Part shown: in pieces, positions 1-37,218 of the stretch | How positions within the stretch are numbered: position 1 is the stretch's first letter | How the letters are laid out: each line of letters begins with the position of its first letter | DNA from: Escherichia phage ETEC-TG | Reading direction: 5' to 3' (one strand) | Sequence record: OR786310.1 | Length of the DNA stretch: 64,000 nucleotides | The notes under the pieces: model-generated | Database searches by the model: none | What the model was told of the DNA's origin: nothing | What the model saw: the letters and a program-made list of their open reading frames with translations, nothing else | Program-made: the position numbers and the translations under genes

Positions 1-6
1 CAAAAA

Positions 7-492
7 TCACTCGTCTTGGCATTCTTCCTCCTCAAATGGATCATAAGAATCGTACTCGTAAGTATCATCTTCTGAAAATTCTACTTCGAAATAAATATCA
101 AACTCTGCAAACAGACGTAGGATGTTAGACATGCTGTAATAATTATCGTAGGCAGATTCAGCTTCATAGTAAACATAAAGCAAATGGTTAGCCTTATCAT
201 CTTCCAAATATTTCCCGTCTGCATACGCATAGTCTGCATATGCTTTACCTGCATCTTCCACAAGAGAACGATCAAGCAGAGTAGGAAATGGTTTCTCTTT
301 TTCTTTTAGTTTGCTCACCAACCAATGTGCAATATCATTCCATTCTGCATCCATACCACTAAAGCAACTTGCTTCTTCTCCAAAAGAAGCTTCTCCTAAA
401 TCGCCACTAATACGAACAACATTAGATGAATTATAGCCACACGTTTCACAATCAGAGTAACTATTATGCACATTGACATTTACTTGAAACAT
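7..492 (-). CDS. hypothetical acidic protein
   Basis: 161 aa ORF, D/E-rich, tightly packed with neighbours on the same strand. Confidence 0.4.
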   Translation of the reverse strand: MFQVNVNVHNSYSDCETCGYNSSNVVRISGDLGEASFGEEASCFSGMDAEWNDIAHWLVSKLKEKEKPFPTLLDRSLVEDAGKAYADYAYADGKYLEDDKANHLLYVYYEAESAYDNYYSMSNILRLFAEFDIYFEVEFSEDDTYEYDSYDPFEEEECQDE

Positions 493-5636: not shown

Positions 5637-5945
5637 TCAACAAGTAATTTCAAAAGGTGTATAGGGTTCCGTATTTCTCATGATCCAAGGACTGCTAGGA
5701 TTGCTCGGATCATAAGGGCCAAAAGGTTTTATGGTAGGTTGTGTTTCTTTCTTCTGAATCTCTTCAAAAATACGACGAAGTTCAGAATATTCTTGATCCA
5801 CCATAAGATTCGGTGCATCTGATTCTACAGCTTGCAGGTTATCTTCCTTAAGAACAATCTCACGAACAAGATTAACATCTTCTGTTTCTAAGATAACTTC
5901 TTTACGGATATTGCCTACACTTTGAATAATTGTAATCTTATACAT
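5637..5945 (-). CDS. hypothetical protein
   Basis: 102 aa ORF. Confidence 0.4.
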   Translation of the reverse strand: MYKITIIQSVGNIRKEVILETEDVNLVREIVLKEDNLQAVESDAPNLMVDQEYSELRRIFEEIQKKETQPTIKPFGPYDPSNPSSPWIMRNTEPYTPFEITC

Positions 5946-6688
5946 TAATCCTCCTCAAGAGTTGAATAAAATTGAAGACCACCGTCCATATCGAAATAAG
6001 CAAATGTTAAGTTATTATTGAACACAGATCCAGTATCCATATAAACACGATTCGCATTGATAACAGGTGTTTTTACATAAGAGTGTCCATGAAACACATA
6101 ATCCACACCCATCACAACAGGAAGTTTCATTCCCTCTTTAGCACAGTCTACCATATCTCTGTCCCACATAAGTGCTTCAGCAAAACGGTTTTCCTGTGTT
6201 TTTGTCATCTTCGAAATGTATTCTGGAATATCTGTTACAGGGAGATATTCCAAAGAAGATGGATACCCACCATGAATAAACGCAAGTTTCATGCCTCTGT
6301 AGTTAACAATGAGAACAACAGGTAAATCTTCTGTCATCATTGCTAAGGCTGTAGCTCCTTCTTCACCACATTCTTCAAAGACCGTATATCCTCCATTTTG
6401 ATACCAACACTCGTAGTAGCTACGATCTCCTTCCAGCATACCTTTAATCATCATGTCTTCATGATTGCCACGAATAGCGTAGCGATTGTGTTTACGAGTA
6501 AATTCTAAAACACAACGAAAGTTTTGCTTTCCACGGTCAGTAAGATCTCCTAGAGATACAACCACATCTGTATCTCGGATACCTAACTTTGCCTTTCCTT
6601 TTTCATACAAATTATAACAACCGTGTAGATCTCCAATTATAAAAAGATCTTGATCGCTTTTAACAGTAATTTCTCTGTGTATGATCAC
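5945..6688 (-). CDS. Ser/Thr protein phosphatase (calcineurin-like metallophosphoesterase)
   Basis: GDLHGCYN, GDLTDRG and RGNHE motifs typical of lambda-PPase/ApaH-type phosphoesterases. Confidence 0.75.
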   Translation of the reverse strand: MIIHREITVKSDQDLFIIGDLHGCYNLYEKGKAKLGIRDTDVVVSLGDLTDRGKQNFRCVLEFTRKHNRYAIRGNHEDMMIKGMLEGDRSYYECWYQNGGYTVFEECGEEGATALAMMTEDLPVVLIVNYRGMKLAFIHGGYPSSLEYLPVTDIPEYISKMTKTQENRFAEALMWDRDMVDCAKEGMKLPVVMGVDYVFHGHSYVKTPVINANRVYMDTGSVFNNNLTFAYFDMDGGLQFYSTLEED

Positions 6689-7024: not shown

Positions 7025-7615
7025 TCAAATTATTAACGAAACCGCATGACTAAATCTTGGTTCAGATATAACCTCTGCTACAGTCACATATGTATCGTGC
7101 AGCCAAAAAGATTCTACTCTACAAACACAAATACCGTTGATAATGAAATCTACACAGGCTTTATTATTTTCGCACACTTGTTGACTATAAACAACCCCTA
7201 AAGAGTCATAAAGTGATCTCACTGTTGCTACCATTTCATCTGTTTCGTCTTCCTGTGAAACAAAGAAAACGAATACAGACAAGTTATTAGCGAAAGTATT
7301 GCTATTCTCTACTTCAACCGACTTACAAGGTAAAAAGGAGTAATATTTACCGTTAGGTATCAATTTCGCCTCAACCTGGTTAAGTATGCTTTGAGATGGT
7401 TTTGTTACATAAAAAAGATTTTCTGTTGGGTTTTCAACATTACTCCTTACTATGCAACGAGTGGGGTTCGAAGGATCAAAAACATGATCGAAATCGACAC
7501 ACACAGGTAAGTTAACAACTTTAAACTTTTTGCTAAGAATGCTTACTGCTGTAAAAATCAAACCAGCATTTATTTTGCCAGTGAAAGTTGAACGCATAAC
7601 TACTCCTCGGATCAT
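7025..7615 (-). CDS. hypothetical protein
   Basis: 196 aa ORF. Confidence 0.4.
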   Translation of the reverse strand: MIRGVVMRSTFTGKINAGLIFTAVSILSKKFKVVNLPVCVDFDHVFDPSNPTRCIVRSNVENPTENLFYVTKPSQSILNQVEAKLIPNGKYYSFLPCKSVEVENSNTFANNLSVFVFFVSQEDETDEMVATVRSLYDSLGVVYSQQVCENNKACVDFIINGICVCRVESFWLHDTYVTVAEVISEPRFSHAVSLII

Positions 7616-25689: not shown

Positions 25690-26415
25690 TTACTTGTTAA
25701 TAATACCTGCAATATTAGGTTTGACAAAGGTCGATGGTTTCATGATCTTACCTTTATCATCAAAGAACACATACACTTTCTGTTTTTCATTATAAACAGC
25801 ATGAACACCAGTGTATGCCCCTTCTGGACGATTGGCATTTCGTTCTTCAATTGCAGCGCATTCTTGTGCAATGGCTGAATCGATATCCGAAGTTTTCCAA
25901 GTTTTCAGCAACTGTTGTTTAGTTGGATACTTGGAATCATTACTTTTCAATACCTCTTTAATAACTTTCTTTTCTGGATATTTTGAACGGATTAGAGTGT
26001 CACGAGACATACGCATAATACCAGCAGCCATTAGTGCCATTTGAACTGGCTCTGTAAATGTTTGTTCCAAAGCATCAAAATCAGTATACACAGTTGGAGT
26101 AAAAACATCGCCTACAGCATAGTCCAAGAAATTCATCGTATGTTCTTCACCAAAGAACATGTAAGTCAGATAACTGGATACTACAAAAATATCTGCTGCT
26201 GCATCCAAGAGTTCTACATGATCGTTTACTTTCGCGGCTGTTTCATACTCTTTAAGCTCTTCACGAACGAACCCGATTTGGGACATAAATAGCTCTTGAG
26301 TGAATTCAGGTTGTTCACCACCTCGTGCTTTGGCATTCCAATCAATCACGTGCTTTGCTGCATTTTTGAAAAATTCAGTATCGAATTTAATATCTTTAAA
26401 AAAATTCTCAATCAT
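25690..26415 (-). CDS. MazG-like NTP pyrophosphohydrolase domain protein
   Basis: REELKEYETA...ELLDAAADIF resembles the MazG EExxE...E..D metal-binding helices. Confidence 0.5.
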   Translation of the reverse strand: MIENFFKDIKFDTEFFKNAAKHVIDWNAKARGGEQPEFTQELFMSQIGFVREELKEYETAAKVNDHVELLDAAADIFVVSSYLTYMFFGEEHTMNFLDYAVGDVFTPTVYTDFDALEQTFTEPVQMALMAAGIMRMSRDTLIRSKYPEKKVIKEVLKSNDSKYPTKQQLLKTWKTSDIDSAIAQECAAIEERNANRPEGAYTGVHAVYNEKQKVYVFFDDKGKIMKPSTFVKPNIAGIINK

Positions 26416-26424
26416 TATAACTCC

Positions 26425-26607
26425 TTATTTAAAATAGCTTTCTAGAAAGTTGCTAATATTTACTACAGTCTCACCCATGTAAATTCCTGCGAAACCGAAA
26501 ACAAGCATACGTGGAATATTGAAATACCATTTATCCGCCGGAAAAGATGCCAGAATTACAATAGCAATTGCTATCAACATCATAAGAATTGTTGCTAAAA
26601 TTATCAT
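26425..26607 (-). CDS. small membrane protein (two predicted TM segments)
   Basis: Start at MIILATILMM preceded by GGAGG; hydrophobic segments ILATILMMLIAIAIVILA and MLVFGFAGIYMG; ATGA overlap with upstream ORF. Confidence 0.4.
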   Translation of the reverse strand: MIILATILMMLIAIAIVILASFPADKWYFNIPRMLVFGFAGIYMGETVVNISNFLESYFK

Positions 26608-26798
26608 AAAAATGCCTCCAGGTATTTTGCACAATGGTAAGCTAAGAAACAAGAAACTACCGCATACCCAACTCCAGACATACATGAATCAATCGCAATA
26701 CATACGGTTCTTTTCTTTGAATTCTTAGGAAAGCTTTCCGAAGCATTCATACAATAAAAAGAAAGCACACTGAAAACGATTAAAATGGCTAAGAACAT
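26604..26798 (-). CDS. small membrane protein (two predicted TM segments)
   Basis: TAAGGAGG then aaaa then ATG; hydrophobic FLAILIVFSVLSFYC and GYAVVSCFLAY. Confidence 0.45.
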   Translation of the reverse strand: MFLAILIVFSVLSFYCMNASESFPKNSKKRTVCIAIDSCMSGVGYAVVSCFLAYHCAKYLEAFL

Positions 26799-26807
26799 TT
26801 TTCCTCC

Positions 26808-27935
26808 TTATTCTGCTGGTTCCCAAGTGCCTGGGATCATTTCTCGAATACGAACACCAACAGGTTTTGTTGGAATACCTTCATCTGAAAATTCTTCATA
26901 CTCTATTTCAACGAACTGATTAATCAAGGTAGAAGCATTCTCTGCTTTACGATAATTGATAGTCTCATGAGCATCTTTACGCATTAAGAATTCGACTACT
27001 TTACCATTTTCCATCTCACCTGTCAACACTCCATCACCATTTTTATCACTTTTTGAATTTGTTACTTTAACTTCAAGGGTGTGGCGAGGCTTACGTTTAA
27101 TAACGTCATAAGAACGTTTATCAAATTCGTAAACTCCGTGAGCATTACGATATACTACACCTTCAGCTTTCTCAAGTAAAGCTTTTTCATAGAAAGCATC
27201 AAACTGTTCTTGGTTTTCAATATACTCTGTATGAACTACACAAATAAGCTCGTCAAGACCATAATCTTCAACTACTGCCTTAAGAGCAGTAAGAACATCA
27301 ACACGTTTTTCAAACGGTAGATCTGGAACTGGAATATCATATACGTAATAATTCAGCAAAGGTGTATTTGCATTATGCTTCTTCCAGGCACTGTTAATTT
27401 GTTGCAGACTAAGGACACCTAACCCAGCAAACACTTCACCATCAAGAGGATGACCAACAACTTCACTAATAAAGTTTGGAATACCTTTCCAATGAGGTGG
27501 CAGGTTATACACTTCCCCAGCTTTTGATAAACACTCCCCTTTCATGTTAATCATAGAACGTAACCCGTTCAGTTTGTATTGTGCATAACCAGGGAACACA
27601 ACCCTTTCAGGATAATCTTTATAATCCTGGCATTTCATTGGTGTAGAAGGAACATGGTTTTCAGCTTCTTCTTTTGTTTTATAATAGCCATTCTTTAACT
27701 GTTTTGTCCATTTGGCAAAAGCTTCAAGTTCAGCTTGTTCTTCTGGTGTTGTTTCATTGGAACGACCGATGTTTTTTGCTTCTGCTGTATAAGATTTTTC
27801 TGTGATTTTTCCACCTACCCTTCCATGAGCTACAGTAACAACTGCACCATCTGTATACACTGTCCACTGTTTAAGTTTTCCTTTTGAATCTTTACCATAC
27901 AGCGTTTGATTTGTTTGTTGCATTAGTCCTCCCAT
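26808..27935 (-). CDS. ATP-dependent DNA ligase
   Basis: Motif I YKLNGLR (KxNG variant of KxDG), motif III DGEVF, motif IV EGVVYR, motif V VIKRKP; T7-ligase-like order. Confidence 0.8.
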   Translation of the reverse strand: MGGLMQQTNQTLYGKDSKGKLKQWTVYTDGAVVTVAHGRVGGKITEKSYTAEAKNIGRSNETTPEEQAELEAFAKWTKQLKNGYYKTKEEAENHVPSTPMKCQDYKDYPERVVFPGYAQYKLNGLRSMINMKGECLSKAGEVYNLPPHWKGIPNFISEVVGHPLDGEVFAGLGVLSLQQINSAWKKHNANTPLLNYYVYDIPVPDLPFEKRVDVLTALKAVVEDYGLDELICVVHTEYIENQEQFDAFYEKALLEKAEGVVYRNAHGVYEFDKRSYDVIKRKPRHTLEVKVTNSKSDKNGDGVLTGEMENGKVVEFLMRKDAHETINYRKAENASTLINQFVEIEYEEFSDEGIPTKPVGVRIREMIPGTWEPAE

Positions 27936-28144
27936 TTAAAAACTGAAATTTTCAATCTGTTACACACTTCATCCAAATCTGCGTCGAGTAACGTTGTAGA
28001 TGTTGCCAACATATAATCAATACTTGTGAAACCTTGCCCTTTGGCATAGTCAAGCATATCTTCATACATATCTTCAAGATCACCGTCATCAAAAGTAGCT
28101 AGAAAATCCTCGTCCCCGCTACGAACATAAAATGCAGTACTCAT
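27923..28144 (-). CDS. hypothetical acidic protein
   Basis: 73 aa ORF. Confidence 0.35.
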   Translation of the reverse strand: MSTAFYVRSGDEDFLATFDDGDLEDMYEDMLDYAKGQGFTSIDYMLATSTTLLDADLDEVCNRLKISVFKWED

Positions 28145-28329
28145 TCATCTTCATCCCAAGATTCAAAAACGCAGCAATCATCGGTTTCTATAATACCAAC
28201 ACGTCCGCAGGTATTGCAAGTGATTTTATCACCGTAGAATAAATAATTTTTATCACCCTCTGTGTTTACAGTTATGTCATTACTACCACAAGGGCAAGTC
28301 AGCCAACCAACAACGATATCTTTTTTCAT
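28141..28329 (-). CDS. small zinc-ribbon protein
   Basis: CPCG...CNTCG...CC cysteine pattern. Confidence 0.35.
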   Translation of the reverse strand: MKKDIVVGWLTCPCGSNDITVNTEGDKNYLFYGDKITCNTCGRVGIIETDDCCVFESWDEDE

Positions 28330-28338
28330 AATCCCTCC

Positions 28339-28665
28339 TTAAGCGTTCAGTTTGTTGTTGAGTTCGTAAATCTCTTCTTGAAGAGCATCAATCTCTTCCT
28401 CCAAACGGGAGATCTCTTCTTTTAGATATACCATTTCTGATTCTTTCTCTTCTAATTCATTTTCAAATTTTACTTTATTCGCCTCATTTTCATAATGCAG
28501 TTCAGCGTAATCATCACGCATTTGTTCAATAAGATGAATCAGAGATAAGATATAGTTATCCCCAGTTTCATCTCGCCACTCTTCCCCGTGGCGCAAGATT
28601 GTGATTCGTCCAGTGTTTTCATCTAAAATTGTCTCATATTTACGATCATCTGTATAAATCTGCAT
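28339..28665 (-). CDS. hypothetical coiled-coil protein
   Basis: E/L-rich heptad-like C-terminus. Confidence 0.4.
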   Translation of the reverse strand: MQIYTDDRKYETILDENTGRITILRHGEEWRDETGDNYILSLIHLIEQMRDDYAELHYENEANKVKFENELEEKESEMVYLKEEISRLEEEIDALQEEIYELNNKLNA

Positions 28666-28674
28666 TATTACTCC

Positions 28675-29079
28675 TTATTGAAGTTTAAGTGAACCACGAA
28701 GACGTTTCTCTTGCTGATCACGAATATATTGTGGAACCTCGTGAATTGAATCATTACCGTGCCTATTTTCAACAACTAAAGAGATAACTTGATAACCAAA
28801 CTCTTCAGCAAGAGTTAGATAAGGTTTAAGTTCTTTCTCTGTGGTTGAAGTGTTAGAAACAATAATCTTGTTAAGATTAGATGCCATAGCATCACGAACA
28901 ATACTCTGACACCATGCGTGTGCTTTACCTACATTTTCTGGCTTCCAATCGTAAACACCACTTTCTGTGTAATGGTATTGATCTGCCTCACAGATAGGCC
29001 AATAACCTTCAGAAATAATTTCTGCTACCGTAGATTTACCAGCACCTGAAACGCCACGTAAAATGATAAGTTGTTTCAT
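28675..29079 (-). CDS. polynucleotide 5'-kinase (T4 Pnk kinase-domain-like P-loop kinase)
   Basis: MKQLIILRGVSGAGKST parallels T4 Pnk MKKIILTIGCPGSGKST; later IIVSNTSTT parallels VIISDTN. Confidence 0.65.
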   Translation of the reverse strand: MKQLIILRGVSGAGKSTVAEIISEGYWPICEADQYHYTESGVYDWKPENVGKAHAWCQSIVRDAMASNLNKIIVSNTSTTEKELKPYLTLAEEFGYQVISLVVENRHGNDSIHEVPQYIRDQQEKRLRGSLKLQ

Positions 29080-30012
29080 TTATCCTCCAAAGAAGTTTTC
29101 GATTTTTTCACGTCGCTCTTGCTGATTTAAAGCAGCCCATTGAGTCTTCGTAAAATTATTTCGAATCCATTCTAACAAAGCGTAATATTCTTCGTCAACA
29201 ATTTGTTTGGCATTTTTTGGATTATCCCAAATCAGATCCCACTTTTTATCTCCACCACGCATAAGAAACTTCTTAGTAAGATAGTGTGGTGATTTAATTT
29301 TTAAAAGTAAGTTGAACGGATAGTTTGTTTCACGAACTACAAACCCTTCGTGTTTACAATGTTTAGACATTTCAACAACATCTGAAAACTTAACCATTGG
29401 ATGAACTTCAGGACGCTTAAATTTGGTGACAGAAGCAATTCCATCAAGAGCACCTTCAGGTAACATAAAACTTGTCCCATCAGGATTTTGAATTCTGGCA
29501 CCAATTAAGTATGCACCTGGTTCTTCTTCGACAATATGCGGATCAGAAGGATCACAGATTTCAAACAGGAAAGTTGCTTTTGCACTCTCTGCCCATTTGA
29601 TGAAATGTTCTATGTCATCGCACTCTGAAACAATATGATTCTTTGCAATACTTGCAAAATCTGATTCAAGGCTTCCTGTTGTCGATACAATAAGTTGACC
29701 TTTATATACACCTACAGAGGCCATAAAACCATTTACTTTACGAACCACATCTACAAGTTCATCCGCTGGTAGATCTGTGCCATTCTCAAAACGATTAAAA
29801 ATCTTAGTGAAAGGCCAAATAACAACATTGTCATCAGCATCAACAACGATTCCGCGACATTCTAGAAGACGAGAATCAATGCTCCATAAGTTATCCCAGA
29901 AAACTTTGTTCTTATACTTAAGAACAGATAGACCAGAATACTCTCCTTCTTTATATGTTTTCTTATGAACTAAACCTTTTTCAACCAAATCGTCGCAATT
30001 AAATTTAGTCAC
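29080..30012 (-). CDS. RNA ligase, T4 Rnl1-like
   Basis: LLECRGIVV (T4 ALECRGIMF), motif I KVNGF, motif IV EGFVVRE, motif V LLKIKS. Confidence 0.75.
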   Translation of the reverse strand: MTKFNCDDLVEKGLVHKKTYKEGEYSGLSVLKYKNKVFWDNLWSIDSRLLECRGIVVDADDNVVIWPFTKIFNRFENGTDLPADELVDVVRKVNGFMASVGVYKGQLIVSTTGSLESDFASIAKNHIVSECDDIEHFIKWAESAKATFLFEICDPSDPHIVEEEPGAYLIGARIQNPDGTSFMLPEGALDGIASVTKFKRPEVHPMVKFSDVVEMSKHCKHEGFVVRETNYPFNLLLKIKSPHYLTKKFLMRGGDKKWDLIWDNPKNAKQIVDEEYYALLEWIRNNFTKTQWAALNQQERREKIENFFGG

Positions 30013-30013
30013 A

Positions 30014-30565
30014 TTACTCTCCTTTGATTATTTTGTGATGGTCTACAGTCACGATATCTCGTTTACTCATCATAGAAATTATCTCATCAAAATGCAAGAT
30101 TTTTCCGTGTGCATCCCAACCCACATCTAACATTTTACCATAAGCTTCATCAGGGAAAGATCCGTGGGAATGCCCGTGTAGCATGATTGATCCACGACCT
30201 TGTTTATTCCAGGAGGCAATAGGGTAATGACTTAAGACGAAGAACAGCTTCTGGTATTTCACTTCGTCATAATACACCACTTCGCCATACTCTGCAAGCA
30301 CTTCTCGGTGCTTGCTGTAATCATGGTTCCCAACAAGATAAGTGATATCCCCTTGCAGACGGGAAGCAATCTTACGGGTATCTTCTTCAGTCCCGAAACA
30401 GAAGTCGCCCAAATGCCACATCTTAACACCAGGGGTAGTAGCACATTTGTTCCATGCTTCGATCAAGGCTTCTGTCATGTGGTCCATATCTTCCCACGGA
30501 CGATATTCAGGAGCAAACTCTCGAATGCGTTTATGCATAAAATGCAAATCGCTTGTAATAAACAT
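30014..30565 (-). CDS. metallophosphoesterase (calcineurin-like), candidate RNA end-healing phosphatase
   Basis: SDLHF, GDFCFG, GNHD and HGHSHG motifs of the binuclear metallophosphoesterase fold; coupled to the ligase gene. Confidence 0.7.
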   Translation of the reverse strand: MFITSDLHFMHKRIREFAPEYRPWEDMDHMTEALIEAWNKCATTPGVKMWHLGDFCFGTEEDTRKIASRLQGDITYLVGNHDYSKHREVLAEYGEVVYYDEVKYQKLFFVLSHYPIASWNKQGRGSIMLHGHSHGSFPDEAYGKMLDVGWDAHGKILHFDEIISMMSKRDIVTVDHHKIIKGE

Positions 30566-30921
30566 TAGTATAATCCCTCGCTAAATAATTCATGGTCGTG
30601 ACCATTACGCTCATGGTCGATCTGGTCAGCATTTTCCGCGATGATGTAAGCATCCGCACGACTCCACCAATTGTAATACTGATCGATAAAGCCTTGATTA
30701 TCTGGTGTGCACAAAGTTTTGTTGATTACACCTGCTTCTTTCAACACGTTTAACTGTGCATATAGTACAGGATTTGCATGTCGAACACAAGGAATAATTA
30801 ACTCTTCGCCATTATTCAAAATATACTTATTTGCAGCACAGACAATAACACGTTGCGCATAATGACCCTCACCCATCCAGGTAAGAGGTTGGTAACAAAT
30901 GTTGTTTTCAATACCACTCAT
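30565..30921 (-). CDS. hypothetical protein
   Basis: 118 aa ORF. Confidence 0.4.
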   Translation of the reverse strand: MSGIENNICYQPLTWMGEGHYAQRVIVCAANKYILNNGEELIIPCVRHANPVLYAQLNVLKEAGVINKTLCTPDNQGFIDQYYNWWSRADAYIIAENADQIDHERNGHDHELFSEGLY

Positions 30922-31080
30922 TGTTTCCTAATCCTCCTCTCTTAAATTATCCTCGAAAAAACTAGTATCTGGAAGTAAAAGATCATTGCTTGTGTCGGGC
31001 CAATCCTCTTCTTCTCTGTAGATAAAGTAACCTTCGTCCTCTTTTTGTTCCGACCAAACCGAATGATGCATGTTCTCTCC

Positions 31081-31437
31081 TTAGTAGTGCACACGAATCA
31101 TTTTAATACCATAACGCTGCATGGATTCTTTTGCAAGCATGAATTTATCCCCAGCGGCGGGATTAGAAGTATGCACGAAAATGGTAGGTGAACCAAAGCA
31201 AGGTTTACCAAACGCCAGAAGTTCTTCCAGGTGCAGGAAAACATCATACCCATCTTGGTCTGACTCCATACCTAAATCGTTGTCAAAATGCCACTCGTCT
31301 ACAAAACGATAACCCTTCTGCACCTCATTCATGTAACGAGAGGCAAGAAGTTCCTGTGAGGTTTTAAACCAGATTGCATCTGGACAACCATAATCTTTTG
31401 GATCACGTAAATCATCAAGCCAAATAATAGTACCCAT
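31081..31437 (-). CDS. hypothetical protein
   Basis: 118 aa ORF with IIWLDDLRDP and VHTSNPAAG motifs of unknown family. Confidence 0.4.
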   Translation of the reverse strand: MGTIIWLDDLRDPKDYGCPDAIWFKTSQELLASRYMNEVQKGYRFVDEWHFDNDLGMESDQDGYDVFLHLEELLAFGKPCFGSPTIFVHTSNPAAGDKFMLAKESMQRYGIKMIRVHY

Positions 31438-31447
31438 ATAACCTCCT

Positions 31448-31918
31448 CTAAGCTGGCATGATTAAAAAAGAACTCTCCACTTCAAAATGCCAATCATCCA
31501 CAAGCCCTGATTCCCAATCCTTCTCTTCATGGAAAGAGCAAATCCAACGGTACATACCTGGCGGTGTATTCTCAACATCTTCTGGCAACCCATAATCCAA
31601 AGCTGTCTTACCGTTCTCTGTAAAACCAGGATGGAGATTAGGAGCTTTCAGTACAGAAACCATACCTCCAACATCCACAGCTACGATCCACTCTGTCATG
31701 TATGGGCTGTCATATTGAGGCTCATCAGAACCTACCTCAACAGCCTCTGTGCGTAAGATGATAATAGCCTGCTCTGTGATTGGGGCTTTGACAATATACC
31801 CGTGATCCTCAAAAAGATCGATAACCTCGAACTCATCGCCGTTTTCTACACCATAACTCTTATTCAAAGAGATAAACTTCGGGTTATCATCGTAAGCTTT
31901 AGTTACTTTAATTTTCAT
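31448..31918 (-). CDS. hypothetical protein
   Basis: 156 aa ORF. Confidence 0.4.
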   Translation of the reverse strand: MKIKVTKAYDDNPKFISLNKSYGVENGDEFEVIDLFEDHGYIVKAPITEQAIIILRTEAVEVGSDEPQYDSPYMTEWIVAVDVGGMVSVLKAPNLHPGFTENGKTALDYGLPEDVENTPPGMYRWICSFHEEKDWESGLVDDWHFEVESSFLIMPA

Positions 31919-35192: not shown

Positions 35193-35267
35193 GGCCCTGT
35201 AGCTCAATGGGAGAGCTGTCGGCTCATAACCGATAGGTAGCTGGATCGAAACCAGCCAGGGCCACCA
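35193..35267 (+). tRNA. tRNA-Met (CAT)
   Basis: Manual cloverleaf: acceptor GGCCCTG/CAGGGCC, anticodon loop CTCATAA, T-stem GCTGG/CCAGC, encoded CCA. Confidence 0.65.
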
Positions 35268-35269
35268 AC

Positions 35270-35344
35270 GTCTTTATGGTGTAATGGATAGCACAGGAGT
35301 CTTCTAAACTCTTAGTCAAGGTTCGATTCCTTGTAAAGACACCA
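35270..35344 (+). tRNA. tRNA-Arg (TCT)
   Basis: Acceptor GTCTTTA/TAAAGAC, anticodon loop CTTCTAA, T-loop TTCGATT, encoded CCA. Confidence 0.65.
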
Positions 35345-35540
35345 GAACATTTTAACATGAATTAGCTCAAGTGATTTGAACCCACTACTGATCATGGTGG
35401 CAGAGAATGAGGCAAGTATGTCAGACATTATAAACAAAGGCCACGGTTATATTAGAAGACATAAATGCTCGAAGAGCACCGTTCGTGGAGAACGGGGGTT
35501 GGTGGAGTCACCATTCATGGTAAAATGTTTTAAAAAACTA

Positions 35541-35570
35541 TTGACAACTAACATTATTTTATGTTAGATT
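35541..35570 (+). promoter_or_regulatory. sigma70-like promoter (TTGACA, 18 nt, TAGATT) internal to tRNA array
   Basis: -35 TTGACA 35541..35546, -10-like 35565..35570, 8 nt upstream of tRNA-Ser. Confidence 0.4.
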
Positions 35571-35578
35571 ATAAGTAT

Positions 35579-35669
35579 GGAAGGGCAAATCGACGTGGCG
35601 ACGAAAACGGTCTTGAAAACCGCCGAGCTTGAAAGAGCCTTGGGAGTTCGACTCTCCCTCCTTCCGCCA
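35579..35669 (+). tRNA. tRNA-Ser (TGA), class II
   Basis: Acceptor GGAAGGG/TCCTTCC, anticodon loop CTTGAAA, long variable arm, T-arm GGGAG-TTCGACT-CTCCC, discriminator G, CCA. Confidence 0.6.
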
Positions 35670-35673
35670 GATT

Positions 35674-35759
35674 GGTAGATTGGTGAAATGGTAGCCACGA
35701 CAGTTTGCTAAACTGTAGTCGGAAACGGCGTGTAGGTTCGAGTCCTACATCTACCGCCA
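35674..35759 (+). tRNA. tRNA-Ser (GCT), class II
   Basis: Acceptor GGTAGAT/ATCTACC, anticodon stem-loop ACAGT-TTGCTAA-ACTGT, long variable arm, discriminator G, CCA. Confidence 0.6.
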
Positions 35760-35900
35760 AGTTCTTTTTAATATAGCTTACTTTAGCAGAGTAAATCTTC
35801 GGCAAGTGGCGGTAACCACTTTACCGATAACTCATAGTTAGTGGTGTGAACACTGGCTATTTTAAAAAGAATTTAAAAAGAATTTAAATATTAGTATTTA

Positions 35901-35988
35901 GGTGAGTTAATTCCGTAGGGGTAGCGGGGCAGACTGTAAATCTGTTATCATTGCGATTCGGGTGGTTCGACTCCATCACTCACCACCA
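35901..35988 (+). tRNA. tRNA-Tyr (GTA), class II
   Basis: Acceptor GGTGAGT/ACTCACC, anticodon stem-loop GCAGA-CTGTAAA-TCTGT, long variable arm, discriminator A, CCA; extra nucleotides between acceptor and D-stem. Confidence 0.55.
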
Positions 35989-35994
35989 AATTAA

Positions 35995-36080
35995 GATGAG
36001 TTGGCTGAATGGTTTAAGCGGCGGACTGTTAATCCGTGTTCGAAAGAACGATATAGGTTCAAATCCTATACTCATCGCCA
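35995..36080 (+). tRNA. class II (long variable arm) tRNA with GTT anticodon (Asn codons)
   Basis: Acceptor GATGAGT/ACTCATC, D-stem GCT/AGC, anticodon stem-loop GCGGA-CTGTTAA-TCCGT, variable hairpin GTTC-GAAA-GAAC, T-arm ATAGG-TTCAAAT-CCTAT, discriminator G, CCA. Confidence 0.55.
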
Positions 36081-36087
36081 GAATTAT

Positions 36088-36165
36088 GGACTTGTAGAGT
36101 TAAGGTAAACCCCCAGTCGCCAAGAGGCTTCTGGAATTGCAGGTATCGAATCCTGCCGAGTCCCA
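36088..36165 (+). ncRNA. irregular tRNA-like element (anticodon region not canonical)
   Basis: Acceptor GGACTTG pairs with CGAGTCC; T-arm GCAGG with 8-nt loop TATCGAAT; the anticodon position is a 4-bp stem CCAG/CTGG enclosing 14 nt; fills the slot between two tRNAs. Confidence 0.3.
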
Positions 36166-36170
36166 GCTTT

Positions 36171-36245
36171 GCTCCTATAGTATAATGGCTATTACAACGG
36201 TTTTGTAATCCGTGGATCTCTGTTCGATTCAGAGTGGGAGCACCA
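36171..36245 (+). tRNA. tRNA-Thr (TGT)
   Basis: Acceptor GCTCCTA/TGGGAGC (one GU pair), anticodon loop TTTGTAA, T-arm CTCTG-TTCGATT-CAGAG, CCA. Confidence 0.6.
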
Positions 36246-36522
36246 ACACAACATTAAGAGCACTGTGATTGATCGTCGTATCCTGTGCACAAGGTCTGTT
36301 CGAAAGACAGTGTTCTTAGTATTGTGTTGATCACACAAAAAAAGAGTTACCTGAAACTTGACCGGAGTAGGGTTGGATGGGGCAAAAGAAGAAGCGGCTC
36401 TCCCATCGACAGCAACGAAGAATAATATTTGACTTTGGTTTTGTATTATTTTAAGTTAGCTTACCGAACGTAGGGCTAGTCACCCAACGGGATACTCGTC
36501 ACTGTCCCACTCAATAAAACTA

Positions 36523-36552
36523 TTGACAACCAATAGTAAAATGTAGTATAGT
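36523..36552 (+). promoter_or_regulatory. sigma70-like promoter (TTGACA, 18 nt, TATAGT)
   Basis: -35 TTGACA 36523..36528 and -10 TATAGT 36547..36552, about 12 nt upstream of tRNA-Gly. Confidence 0.45.
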
Positions 36553-36563
36553 AAAGATGTAGG

Positions 36564-36637
36564 GCGTTCTTGGTGTAGCGGTAGCATTCCGTCCTTCCAA
36601 GTCGGCGGCACGAGTTCGATCCTCGTAGAACGCTCCA
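36564..36637 (+). tRNA. tRNA-Gly (TCC)
   Basis: Acceptor GCGTTCT/AGAACGC, anticodon loop CTTCCAA, T-arm ACGAG-TTCGATC-CTCGT, CCA. Confidence 0.6.
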
Positions 36638-36735
36638 AATTATTTAATAAAGGGTTGCCAGAAAACTTTCTCTTTTACTCATGGTTTTCTCCTTCTCTCA
36701 CACCTCTTCTGGTTGCCCTTCATTAAATGATTTAT

Positions 36736-36811
36736 TGGTTTGTAGTGTAGTCCGGTAGCACACGACACTTTGACTGTCGTAGGTTTGGTTCAAATCCAGA
36801 CAGACCAGCCA
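36736..36811 (+). tRNA. tRNA-Gln (TTG)
   Basis: U1-A72 acceptor TGGTTTG/CAGACCA, anticodon loop CTTTGAC, T-loop TTCAAAT, CCA. Confidence 0.55.
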
Positions 36812-36904
36812 TATAACAAAGGTGAGTCACTACCTCAAGTGTGAAGTTAAAAACGAGGAGCCGCCGAACACTTTCTTTTGCGGTGTACCTTTAGAATGTT
36901 ATGA

Positions 36905-36981
36905 CGGAATTTAGCTCAGTTTGGTAGAGTGTACGCTTTGGGAGCGTATTGTCGCAGGTTCGAATCCTGCAATTCCGACCA
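36905..36981 (+). tRNA. tRNA-Pro (TGG)
   Basis: C1-G72 acceptor CGGAATT/AATTCCG, D-arm GCTC-AGTTTGGTA-GAGT, anticodon loop TTTGGGA, T-arm GCAGG-TTCGAAT-CCTGC, CCA. Confidence 0.65.
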
Positions 36982-36987
36982 ATTAAA

Positions 36988-37061
36988 TGTTTCGTAGTTC
37001 AATGGTAGAACCCACGACTGATAATCGTGAGATACAAGTTCGATTCTTGTCGAAACAACCA
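36988..37061 (+). tRNA. tRNA-Ile (GAT)
   Basis: Acceptor TGTTTCG/CGAAACA, D-arm GTTC-AATGGTA-GAAC, anticodon stem-loop CACGA-CTGATAA-TCGTG, T-loop TTCGATT, CCA. Confidence 0.65.
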
Positions 37062-37063
37062 GT

Positions 37064-37133
37064 TTCCCGTTAGACTTACAGGATAAGAGTTCCACAATTT
37101 ATTGTGACGCTGGTTCGAATCCAGCACGGGATA
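37064..37133 (+). ncRNA. tRNA-like element with collapsed anticodon loop
   Basis: Acceptor TCCCGT/ACGGGA, D-arm with GG loop, canonical T-arm GCTGG-TTCGAAT-CCAGC, but the anticodon arm is CACAA-TTTA-TTGTG (4-nt loop); no encoded CCA. Confidence 0.35.
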
Positions 37134-37139
37134 CATAAT

Positions 37140-37218
37140 AGCGGGATAGAGGAGTCTGGTCGTCCTCGCCAGTTTCATATGCTGGAGATCATTGGTTCAA
37201 ATCCAATTCCCGCCTCCA
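37140..37218 (+). tRNA. tRNA with CAT anticodon (Met or Ile2)
   Basis: Acceptor (A)GCGGGA/TCCCGC(C), anticodon stem-loop CCAGT-TTCATAT-GCTGG, T-arm ATTGG-TTCAAAT-CCAAT, CCA; position 1 may be unpaired. Confidence 0.5.

What the first reader, a model, noticed from the sequence alone, without database searches (positions are those of the whole stretch)
28675..30565. Three-gene RNA end-healing and sealing cassette (phosphoesterase, Rnl1-like ligase, Pnk-like kinase)
Three translationally coupled minus-strand genes: a calcineurin-like metallophosphoesterase (SDLHF, GDFCFG, GNHD), an RNA ligase with T4 Rnl1 hallmarks (LLECRGIVV, KVNGF, EGFVVRE, LLKIKS) and a stand-alone P-loop kinase matching the T4 Pnk kinase domain (LRGVSGAGKST). 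Together they supply the 3'-phosphatase, 5'-kinase and ligase activities needed to repair tRNAs cut by host anticodon nucleases. In T4 the kinase and phosphatase are fused in one Pnkp protein; here they are separate genes and the phosphatase is a metallophosphoesterase, as in bacterial Pnkp/Hen1 systems. Both this ligase and the nearby DNA ligase (YKLNGLR) use KxNG rather than KxDG in motif I. The cassette sits in the same genome as a large tRNA array.
Basis: partly seen in the sequence, partly recalled or inferred. Interest (0 to 1): 0.7.

Follow-up and report, generated by a model that had tools for sequence, protein, structure and literature searches.

The report
Phage RNA break-repair gene cassette
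Three adjacent genes of a phAPEC8-like E. coli phage (a small polynucleotide kinase, an RNA ligase and a metallophosphoesterase) almost certainly form a repair kit for RNAs cut by host defence nucleases; it is real and widely conserved, but it is already annotated in GenBank and was predicted in the literature, and no one has tested it.

Summary
Three tightly packed minus-strand ORFs sit exactly at 28675-30565, with every quoted motif present.

Family placement:
- Kinase: closest solved relatives are RNA-repair polynucleotide kinases (Pnkp1, T4 Pnk, CthPnkp).
- Ligase: passes Pfam RNA_lig_T4_1.
- Third protein: complete binuclear metallophosphoesterase (MPE).

Linkage is strong. In 62 ligase-anchored viral loci, 48 keep both kinase and MPE within 3 kb, with shuffled gene order. 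Elsewhere the kinase pairs with a different RNA ligase family or a T4-type HAD phosphatase instead.

1. The window is a Phapecoctavirus. GenBank already names these genes, and Iyer et al. 2022 describe the rV5-type neighbourhood (sirtuin, ligase, cREC, kinase, MazG, phosphoesterase).
2. The cassette extends to a cREC gene (31081-31437).
3. The MPE is aq_1665-like, not Pnkp/Hen1-like.
4. The ligase is not a T4 RnlA orthologue. It belongs to a KxNG, short-C-domain clade that is as close in fold to fungal Trl1 as to T4 Rnl1.

Verdict: interpretation supported, novelty low, activity untested. The open question is whether the ligase seals 2'-phosphate ends as Trl1 does.

The parts
28675..29079 (-). 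Stand-alone polynucleotide 5'-kinase-like P-loop kinase (134 aa)
   Evidence: Pfam AAA_33 4e-10; phrog_2071 3e-56 and phrog_505 'polynucleotide kinase' 2e-8. Family profile vs PDB: Pnkp1 4xrp 4e-7, T4 Pnk 1.6e-5, CthPnkp kinase 6e-4. Invariant P-loop, D33 (aligned to T4 D35) and R106.
29080..30012 (-). Rnl1-like ATP-dependent RNA ligase of the KxNG, short-C-domain clade (310 aa, GTG start)
30014..30565 (-). aq_1665-like binuclear metallophosphoesterase (183 aa), candidate 3'-end healing enzyme
30565..30921 (-). phrog_839 protein of unknown function (118 aa); membership uncertain
   Evidence: Overlaps the MPE start by 1 nt. phrog_839 4e-47, no Pfam or NCBIfam hit. Adjacent only in close relatives; distant relatives lie near the kinase in 5 other loci.
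30928..31071 (-). 47-aa acidic ORF between cREC and the phrog_839 gene; membership uncertain
   Evidence: Annotated in related records. Conserved only in close relatives.
31081..31437 (-). cREC (cyclic-phosphate processing receiver-like) protein (118 aa), candidate cyclic phosphodiesterase
   Evidence: Pfam PF20274 cREC_REC 1.2e-13, 52 bits vs 27 cut-off. 54% identical to the rV5 ORF directly downstream of its RNA ligase. Role predicted in PMC7824862 and PMC9503650.
25690..26415 (-). MazG-like nucleotide pyrophosphohydrolase; associated neighbour named in the published neighbourhood
   Evidence: Pfam PRA-PH 2.7e-6; phrog_671 7.5e-29. Homologue next to Sir2 in rV5. Listed in PMC9503650 section 3.7.3.
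26808..27935 (-). ATP-dependent DNA ligase with motif I KLNG; conserved neighbour, probably a separate function
   Evidence: Pfam DNA_ligase_A_M 1.2e-9; phrog_114 3e-74. Within 8 kb of the RNA ligase in 30 of 62 loci. KLNG at residues 121-124, lineage-specific.
1..22 (-). First seven codons (MPRRVIF) of the Sir2 gene, cut by the window edge
   Evidence: The full gene in phage anhysbys is 46% identical (E 1e-89) to the rV5 sirtuin that sits beside the rV5 RNA ligase.
35193..37218 (+). tRNA array: 10 called tRNAs plus an unannotated tRNA-Tyr(GUA) at 35901-35985
   Evidence: ARAGORN; Rfam; relaxed ARAGORN.

Best explanation
This is a phage-encoded RNA 'heal-and-seal' module. It is expressed from a long early/middle operon of a phAPEC8-like myovirus.

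Proposed sequence of events:
1. [quoted passage not shown]
2. The 134-aa P-loop kinase phosphorylates the 5'-OH. D33 acts as general base and the P-loop binds the NTP.
3. The binuclear metallophosphoesterase, possibly helped by the upstream cREC protein, opens and removes the cyclic phosphate to give a ligatable 3'-OH.
4. The ligase is adenylylated on K92, transfers AMP to the 5'-phosphate and seals the break.

What is shown: family membership, intact catalytic residues and conserved linkage of the genes. What is inferred: the enzymatic steps, the order of healing, the identity of the RNA substrate, and whether a 2'-phosphate is retained at the junction.
For: 1. Family placement. The kinase profile's best solved relatives are RNA-repair polynucleotide kinases: Pnkp1 4e-7, T4 Pnk 1.6e-5, CthPnkp 6e-4. 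The ligase passes Pfam RNA_lig_T4_1, hits only T4 Rnl1 in the PDB (2e-10), and conserves every nucleotidyl-transfer residue. The MPE has all metal-binding motifs invariant.
2. Conserved linkage with shuffled order in rV5, PAK_P1, two Vibrio Demerecviridae and an Acinetobacter Saclayvirus.
3. Ligase-anchored sample: of 62 loci with full flanks, 51 have the kinase within 3 kb, 52 the MPE, and 48 both. After dereplication, 34 of 43 clusters have both.
4. Kinase-anchored sample: of 64 loci with full flanks, 35 have an RNA ligase within 3 kb (24 Rnl1-like, 11 of the unrelated PF09414 family). All 35 also have a phosphoesterase. Four loci have a stand-alone HAD_PNKP domain instead, and HAD_PNKP never co-occurs with the MPE. 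Partner swapping of this kind is what a heal-and-seal module predicts.
5. The same neighbourhood type was independently predicted to be RNA repair (PMC9503650 section 3.7.3). A Pfam cREC gene lies 0.5 kb upstream.
6. An MPE is experimentally able to do the 3'-healing step in CthPnkp (PMC1920235 abstract).
Against: - No member of this kinase, MPE or ligase clade has been assayed. I found no paper on them.
- In the HMMER alignment the kinase has His at the T4 Pnk R38 position and Asp at the R126 position. The roles of those T4 residues are from my memory of the T4 Pnk literature.
- 15 of 64 kinase loci have neither a ligase nor a phosphoesterase within 8 kb.
- The neighbourhood is also rich in NAD-salvage and ADP-ribose-processing genes, so co-location may partly reflect a general counter-defence island.
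- Tight packing is not specific to the trio.
Confidence: 0.75

Rival explanations
1. The cassette is the same repair module but uses fungal/plant Trl1-type chemistry. The cyclic phosphate is opened to 3'-OH/2'-PO4 by cREC or the MPE. The KxNG ligase requires or tolerates the 2'-PO4. The 2'-phosphate at the junction is then removed with NAD+ by the phage sirtuin or the host KptA. The frequently linked NAD-salvage genes supply the NAD+.
For: - Motif I is KxNG, as in Trl1-LIG, where the Asn contacts a sulfate proposed to mimic the 2'-PO4 (PMC6379707; PMC10946426).
- Three features covary perfectly in my loci. The KxNG clade (27/27) has a 69-86 aa tail, an invariant DPH with His at Glu(III)+8, and KK...R at Lys(V)+7/+8/+12. 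The KxDG clade (6/6) has a 118-142 aa tail, N(R/Q/I)IV, and (R/E)LH.
- Trl1's sulfate ligands are H227 (Glu218+9) and R334/R337 (Lys325+9/+12), and its C-domain is 79 aa.
- 44 of 62 KxNG-ligase loci have NAD-linked genes within 8 kb, against only one Macro-like hit among the six KxDG loci.
- Iyer et al. proposed a KptA-like role for the linked sirtuin.
- One residue change in an MPE healing enzyme switches the product to 2'-PO4.
Against: - The residue correspondences come from counting positions, not from a superposition. I had no access to coordinates.
- No sequence profile of the family detects Trl1.
- cREC and Sir2 accompany only 10-11 of 62 KxNG-ligase loci. No KptA or 2H enzyme recurs nearby.
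- In this phage Sir2 is 28.6 kb away, and the window has no NAD-salvage genes.
- The NAD-salvage linkage has an independent explanation as counter-defence against NAD depletion (PMC9503650 section 3.6).
Confidence: 0.2
2. The three genes are not one pathway. The kinase and phosphoesterase act on small molecules (nucleotides, NAD/ADP-ribose derivatives or cyclic-nucleotide immune signals) as part of a counter-defence or nucleotide-metabolism island. Only the ligase touches RNA.
For: - The neighbourhood commonly holds NAMPT, PRPP synthetase, Macro, NADAR, Nudix, MazG and HD hydrolase genes.
- Weaker kinase-profile hits include nicotinamide riboside, gluconate and adenylate kinases.
- MPE structural neighbours include LpxH, YfcE, Ap4A hydrolases and cyclic-nucleotide phosphodiesterases.
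- Iyer et al. call the kinase only a 'nucleotide kinase'.
- 15 of 64 kinase loci lack both a ligase and a phosphoesterase.
Against: - The top five kinase-profile hits include Pnkp1 and two T4 Pnk entries, ahead of any small-molecule kinase.
- In the kinase-anchored sample, an Rnl1-like ligase never appears without the MPE (0 of 64).
- The kinase-MPE pair recruits two unrelated RNA ligase families.
- The MPE is replaced by the T4 Pnk-type HAD phosphatase in some loci and never co-occurs with it.
Confidence: 0.08
3. The ligase gene mainly serves virion assembly (tail-fibre attachment, as T4 gp63 does) or joins DNA, and its neighbours are incidental.
For: Database names such as 'RNA ligase and tail fiber protein attachment catalyst', inherited from T4 gp63. 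An ATP-dependent DNA ligase lies 1.1 kb away.
Against: - The name is transferred from T4, and nothing here tests it.
- The gene sits in the early/middle DNA-metabolism operon, not in the structural module at 38-64 kb.
- It lacks the T4-type C-terminal domain.
- The phage already has a dedicated DNA ligase.
- The conserved kinase and MPE partners make no sense for fibre attachment.
Confidence: 0.02

Closest known systems
Phage T4 tRNA repair pathway (Pnkp/PseT plus Rnl1/gp63) countering the PrrC anticodon nuclease
   Same: Same three chemical activities are predicted: 5'-kinase, 3'-end healing and ATP-dependent sealing. The kinase is a relative of the T4 Pnk kinase domain. The ligase adenylyltransferase domain is homologous to T4 Rnl1, with all catalytic residues present.
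   Different: - The kinase is a stand-alone 134-aa protein with no HAD phosphatase domain.
- 3' healing is assigned to an unrelated metallophosphoesterase.
- The ligase has KxNG rather than KxDG and a 70-aa tail in place of the ~130-aa tRNA-specificity domain, and it fails the T4 RnlA equivalog threshold.
- The genes are adjacent here. My recollection, not checked, is that they are dispersed in T4.
rV5/Mydo-type sirtuin-centred phage RNA-repair neighbourhood (Iyer, Burroughs, Anantharaman & Aravind 2022, Viruses 14:1977, section 3.7.3)
   Same: Same gene set: T4-like tRNA ligase, cREC, nucleotide kinase, MazG pyrophosphatase and calcineurin-like phosphoesterase. The phage's Sir2 is orthologous to the rV5 sirtuin (46% identity).
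   Different: - Here the sirtuin is 28.6 kb from the cassette rather than inside it.
- The paper calls the phosphoesterase 'occasional'. In my samples it is the most constant partner of the ligase (52 of 62 loci) and of the kinase (40 of 64).
- That description is computational only.
Bacterial Pnkp/Hen1 and Pnkp1-Rnl-Hen1 RNA repair systems (Clostridium thermocellum, Capnocytophaga gingivalis)
   Same: A P-loop polynucleotide kinase of the same clade: Pnkp1 is the best PDB hit, 4e-7. [quoted passage not shown]
   Different: - The domains are separate genes rather than one polypeptide.
- No Hen1 methyltransferase was seen in the cassette; this was not tested by profile.
Fungal tRNA ligase Trl1 (Rnl6 clade) and the Mucorales stand-alone 'sealing-only' ligase
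   Same: - KxNG motif I.
- A short helical C-terminal module.
- Conserved His after motif III and basic residues 7-12 positions after motif V.
- Fold similarity equal to that with T4 Rnl1.
- Separate healing and sealing proteins, as in Mucorales.
   Different: - No sequence-profile link to Trl1.
- No 2H cyclic phosphodiesterase.
- The kinase is not fused.
- A 2'-PO4 requirement is unknown.

Membership tests
Rnl1 family RNA ligase (Pfam PF09511 RNA_lig_T4_1) | Scores above Pfam's gathering threshold | tested here: met
   56.6 bits vs 28.3; residues 51-244 cover profile positions 1-227 of 227.
Rnl1 family RNA ligase (Pfam PF09511 RNA_lig_T4_1) | Covalent nucleotidyltransferase motifs with the lysine nucleophile, plus the Rnl1-type N-terminal sub-domain residues (T4 R54, K75, F77) | tested here: met
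   R53, K70, F72, K92, G95, E151, E222-G223, K238 and K240 are conserved in 33 of 33 family members and aligned to T4 Rnl1 by HMMER. The T4 residue roles come partly and partly from memory.
T4 RnlA orthologue (NCBIfam TIGR02308 equivalog) | Curated equivalog score, and the ~130-aa C-terminal domain that gives T4 Rnl1 its tRNA specificity | tested here: not met
   24.7 bits vs 242.25 cut-off. The profile alignment to T4 Rnl1 ends at residue 238. The tail after motif V is 70 aa, vs 118-142 aa in KxDG relatives. The role of the C-domain is stated in PMC6379707.
T4 RnlA orthologue (NCBIfam TIGR02308 equivalog) | Motif I KxDG | tested here: not met
   KVNG at 92-95. N is found in 27 of 33 relatives in my loci and in all 62 ligase-anchored loci.
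Trl1-LIG / Rnl6 clade | KxNG motif I and a short helical C-domain after motif V | tested here: met
   KVNG. The model has six short helices at 242-307. The Trl1 C-domain is 79 aa with five helices. Homology of the two C-domains is not established.
Trl1-LIG / Rnl6 clade | Residues binding the RNA 2'-PO4 (Trl1 N150, H227, R334, R337) | tested here: inconclusive
   N94, H159 (Glu+8), K247/K248 and R252 (Lys+7/+8/+12) are invariant or nearly so and specific to the clade. Equivalence rests on position counting only. No superposition was possible, and sequence profiles do not reach Trl1.
Trl1-LIG / Rnl6 clade | Requirement for a 3'-OH/2'-PO4 end | not testable with these tools
   Needs a biochemical assay.
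T4 Pnk-type polynucleotide 5'-kinase | P-loop plus the catalytic Asp that activates the 5'-OH (T4 D35) | tested here: met
   G12, G14, K15, T17 and A32-D33 are invariant in 20 diverse homologues. D33 aligns with T4 D35.
T4 Pnk-type polynucleotide 5'-kinase | Arg residues contacting the acceptor and the NTP (T4 R38, R126) | tested here: not met
   H36 occupies the R38 column and D110 the R126 column. Invariant R106 aligns with T4 R122. The roles of the T4 residues are recalled from the literature, not checked here.
T4 Pnk-type polynucleotide 5'-kinase | Closest characterised relatives are polynucleotide kinases | tested here: met
   Profile vs PDB: Pnkp1 4e-7, T4 Pnk 1.6e-5 and 2.7e-5, CthPnkp kinase 6e-4, all ahead of gluconate, NR and adenylate kinases. 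A single-sequence search was uninformative.
T4 Pnkp bifunctional enzyme | C-terminal HAD (DxDxT) 3'-phosphatase fused to the kinase | tested here: not met
   The protein is 134 aa, kinase domain only. No HAD_PNKP ORF exists anywhere in the window.
CthPnkp / Pnkp-Hen1 type metallophosphoesterase healing domain | Binuclear metallophosphoesterase active site | tested here: met
   D6, H8, D54, N80, H81, H113, H132 and H134 are invariant in 24 homologues.
CthPnkp / Pnkp-Hen1 type metallophosphoesterase healing domain | Specific relationship to the CthPnkp phosphatase domain (lambda-phosphatase-like clade) | tested here: not met
   [not shown]
CthPnkp / Pnkp-Hen1 type metallophosphoesterase healing domain | Hydrolysis of RNA 2',3'-cyclic phosphate and 2'/3'-phosphomonoesters | not testable with these tools
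   Needs a biochemical assay.
rV5-type sirtuin-centred phage RNA-repair neighbourhood (Iyer et al. 2022) | Co-located T4-like ligase, cREC, nucleotide kinase, MazG and (optionally) a calcineurin-like phosphoesterase | tested here: met
   All five lie within 25690-31437. They are homologous to the rV5 set.
rV5-type sirtuin-centred phage RNA-repair neighbourhood (Iyer et al. 2022) | Sirtuin gene inside the neighbourhood | tested here: not met
   The orthologous Sir2 (46% identity to rV5 Sir2) starts at window position 22 on the minus strand, 28.6 kb from the kinase.

The most novel reading that the evidence does not exclude
The KxNG, short-C-domain phage ligases may be bacterial-virus counterparts of the eukaryal Trl1 (Rnl6) tRNA ligases. 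In this reading they seal 3'-OH/2'-PO4 ends produced by cREC or the MPE. The junction then carries a 2'-phosphate that is removed with NAD+ by the phage sirtuin or by the host KptA/Tpt1. That would give a physiological substrate to bacterial KptA, whose role in bacteria has, to my recollection, long been unclear. It would also explain why these ligases travel with NAD-salvage, sirtuin, Macro and NADAR genes.
Probability: 0.2. Interest if true: 0.75.

Novelty: already known. Interest (0 to 1): 0.33.

Why it matters
tRNA-cleaving defences (PrrC, RloC, PARIS, some retron and PtuAB systems, Cas13) are now recognised as common. T4 is still essentially the only phage whose RNA repair has been shown experimentally.

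This cassette is present in hundreds of deposited phages: 682 records carry a relative of the ligase. They include lineages used in therapy and typing, such as phAPEC8-, rV5- and PAK_P1-like phages. Testing it would show how widespread repair, rather than tRNA replacement, is as a counter-defence.

As a genome-scan finding, though, it is ordinary. The genes are already named in GenBank, and the neighbourhood type is already in the literature. The one part with real upside is the ligase clade's Trl1-like signature.

Tried and rejected
1. Single-sequence phmmer of the kinase against the PDB gave only P-loop noise. A family profile was needed.
2. tblastn of rV5 Sir2 and of PAK_P1 NAMPT, PRPP synthetase, Macro and HD proteins against the window found nothing. 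I first placed Sir2 and the NinI-like phosphatase at the wrong window coordinates, because of a ~670-bp indel relative to phage anhysbys (error, corrected).
3. The promoter and terminator scan gave no cassette-specific signal: 38 promoter-like sites vs 32.8 expected. The only convincing terminator is at 24721-24698, far downstream. An internal promoter-like site at 29198-29169 was not pursued.
4. A profile of only the C-terminal two-thirds of the ligase (A4), meant to obtain a residue-level alignment to Trl1-LIG, hit neither Trl1 nor T4 Rnl1.
5. I looked for a recurrent KptA/Tpt1 or 2H gene beside KxNG ligases and found none. An HD hydrolase, a probable dCMP deaminase (judged by eye from the sequence, not profile-tested) and unknowns recur instead.
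6. Burroughs & Aravind 2016 (NAR) could not be opened under the id I tried.
7. I considered and rejected the idea that the three ORFs are chance ORFs or pseudogenes. They are 96-100% conserved across dozens of genomes and have strong profile hits.
8. Literature searches for experiments on this cassette in Phapecoctavirus or Vequintavirinae found none.
Full report
**What is there.** The window is a Phapecoctavirus, a phAPEC8-like E. coli myovirus. Positions 28000-31500 are 99.6% identical to phages dw-ec and BI-EHEC and 96-99% identical to dozens of others. The three ORFs lie exactly where stated, on the minus strand: MPE at 30565-30014 (183 aa), ligase at 30012-29080 (310 aa, GTG start) and kinase at 29079-28675 (134 aa). 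The junctions are tight. The upstream gene overlaps the MPE start by 1 nt. One nucleotide separates the MPE stop from the ligase GTG, which follows AAGGAG. The ligase stop abuts the kinase ATG after GGAGGA. This packing is shared by the whole minus-strand run from about 33.7 kb down to a terminator-like hairpin at 24721-24698, so it is not evidence for a special three-gene unit.

**Family placement: kinase.** The kinase passes Pfam AAA_33 (4e-10) and matches PHROG 'ATPase' (3e-56) and 'polynucleotide kinase' (2e-8). A profile of 20 diverse homologues finds RNA-repair polynucleotide kinases as its best solved relatives: Capnocytophaga Pnkp1 (4e-7), T4 Pnk (1.6e-5) and the C. thermocellum Pnkp kinase domain (6e-4). 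The P-loop and D33 (aligned with T4 D35) are invariant. The T4 R38 and R126 columns hold His and Asp, and invariant R106 aligns with T4 R122.

**Family placement: ligase.** The ligase passes Pfam RNA_lig_T4_1 (56.6 vs 28.3 bits). Its family profile hits only T4 Rnl1 in the PDB (2e-10), and only over residues 48-238. R53, K70, F72, K92, G95, E151, E222-G223, K238 and K240 are conserved in all 33 relatives examined.

**Do the genes work together?**
- Hand-picked distant phages keep the trio linked while shuffling order and orientation: rV5, PAK_P1, Vibrio JSF12 and Gary, and Acinetobacter Aci05.
- In 80 IMG/VR loci anchored on the kinase, 64 have at least 3 kb on both sides. Of these, 40 carry the MPE and 24 the Rnl1-like ligase within 3 kb, and no ligase locus lacks the MPE.
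- Where the Rnl1-like ligase is missing, the commonest neighbour is an unrelated RNA ligase (Pfam RNA_ligase PF09414 plus the PHA02142 OB fold). In four loci a stand-alone HAD_PNKP phosphatase (the T4 Pnk phosphatase domain) appears, and it never co-occurs with the MPE.
- Counting these alternatives, 35 of 64 loci have an RNA ligase within 3 kb, and all 35 also have a phosphoesterase.
- In 80 loci anchored on the ligase, 62 have full flanks. The kinase is within 3 kb in 51, the MPE in 52 and both in 48. After dereplication at 80% identity, 34 of 43 clusters have both.
- Swapping of ligase family and of phosphatase family around a constant kinase is what a heal-and-seal module predicts. It is hard to reconcile with a small-molecule role for the kinase and MPE.

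**The cassette is bigger than three genes and is already in the literature.** The ORF at 31081-31437 is a Pfam cREC_REC 'cyclic-phosphate processing receiver' domain (1.2e-13). Several records mis-name it 'RNA ligase and tail attachment protein'. Iyer, Burroughs, Anantharaman and Aravind (2022) describe a neighbourhood 'prototyped by Escherichia phage V5'. [quoted passage not shown] All of these are present here:
- MazG lies at 25690-26415.
- The phage's Sir2 is 46% identical to the rV5 sirtuin.
- Sir2 has moved, however. Its first seven codons (MPRRVIF) are at window 22-2 on the minus strand, 28.6 kb from the cassette.

GenBank record MK373788 already names the trio 'putative polynucleotide kinase / putative RNA ligase / putative phosphoesterase'. 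I found no experimental work on any of these proteins. The finding is therefore a correct re-derivation of an existing, untested prediction.

**What the ligase is not, and what it might be.** It falls far below NCBIfam's T4 RnlA equivalog threshold (24.7 vs 242 bits). In my loci two clades separate cleanly:

| Feature | KxNG clade (27/27) | KxDG, T4-like clade (6/6) |
|---|---|---|
| Tail after motif V | 69-86 aa | 118-142 aa |
| After the motif III Glu | invariant DPH, His at Glu+8 | N(R/Q/I)IV |
| After motif V | KK...R at Lys+7/+8/+12 | (R/E)LH |

Together these observations keep a Trl1-like, NAD-dependent route alive. The evidence is weak, though:
- The residue equivalences come from counting, not superposition.
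- No sequence profile reaches Trl1.
- cREC and Sir2 accompany only 10-11 of 62 loci, and no KptA or 2H enzyme recurs nearby.
- This window has no NAD-salvage genes.
- NAD salvage has its own counter-defence rationale.

I give this reading a probability of about 0.2.

**Mechanism and confidence.** The most likely mechanism (0.75) runs as follows. [quoted passage not shown] The MPE, perhaps with cREC, frees the 3'-OH. The ligase then seals through a K92-AMP intermediate. Homology, intact active sites and conserved linkage are shown. Activities, substrates (tRNA vs other RNA) and end chemistry are inferred. The 11-member tRNA array (10 by ARAGORN plus an unannotated tRNA-Tyr) lies about 4 kb away on the other strand. 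It has no tRNA-Lys, which I recall is the PrrC target in the T4 system, so repair and replacement could be complementary. That last point is speculation.

**Verdict.** Novelty is low: the cassette is already annotated and predicted. Interest is modest overall. The specific, testable lead is the ligase clade's Trl1-like signature.

Noticed in passing
window 35901-35985 (+): Unannotated class-II tRNA-Tyr(GUA) between tRNA-Ser and tRNA-Asn. Rfam tRNA scores 39 bits with a clean acceptor stem. ARAGORN finds it only at a relaxed threshold, and it is absent from the anhysbys and Schickermooser annotations. The array therefore has 11 members.
   Followed up: yes
window 26808-27935 (-), residues 121-124: The ATP-dependent DNA ligase has motif I KLNG instead of KxDG. 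Among 19 related phage DNA ligases, only this lineage (2 of 19) has Asn; the rest have K[LYF]DG. It is 100% conserved in phage anhysbys and 99% in Schickermooser, so it is not a sequencing error. The functional consequence is unknown.
   Followed up: partly
window 31081-31437 (-): The cREC-domain protein is mis-named 'putative RNA ligase and tail attachment protein' in several GenBank and RefSeq records of related phages.
   Followed up: yes
window 30565-30921 (-): A phrog_839 protein of unknown function overlaps the MPE start codon by 1 nt. It has no Pfam or NCBIfam hit. Distant relatives, sharing a QGF...R..A core and a C-terminal LYSEDLY-like end, lie within 8 kb of the kinase in five unrelated viral contigs (e.g. 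L051, L077).
   Followed up: partly
window 1-22 (-): The start of a Sir2 gene (MPRRVIF...) is cut by the window edge. The full gene in phage anhysbys is orthologous to the rV5 sirtuin that lies next to the rV5 RNA ligase.
   Followed up: yes
window 5945-6688 (-); L005 6186-6929: A second metallophosphoesterase, NinI/lambda-phosphatase-like (Pfam Metallophos 2.7e-13). In Vibrio phage JSF12 its homologue sits immediately upstream of the RNA ligase, so it may also be linked to the repair module in some lineages.
   Followed up: partly
window 7025-7615 (-): This ORF is named 'histidyl tRNA synthetase' in RefSeq (a PHROG-derived name), but it has no Pfam or NCBIfam support. The name looks unreliable.
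   Followed up: partly
window, between about 7 kb and 25 kb: A net ~670-bp length difference relative to phage anhysbys. Coordinates match at 25.7 kb but are offset by 668-674 bp at 0-7 kb. The indel was not located.
   Followed up: no
window 33.7-35.2 kb: A strand switch, with GC skew changing sign at about 34 kb. It lies between the minus-strand early/middle operon and the plus-strand tRNA-plus-structural module. Phage anhysbys annotates a repeat_region here, and several promoter-like sites face both ways. This is likely a divergent promoter region.
   Followed up: no
L010, L012-L017, L025, L029, L030, L037, L062 and many of L092-L170: NAD-salvage genes (NAMPT, PRPP synthetase) and Macro or NADAR genes lie within 8 kb of the KxNG ligase in most lineages. 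They are absent from this window, so Phapecoctavirus appears to have lost or never gained that part of the island. An HD-domain hydrolase is the commonest additional neighbour (21 of 80 loci).
   Followed up: partly
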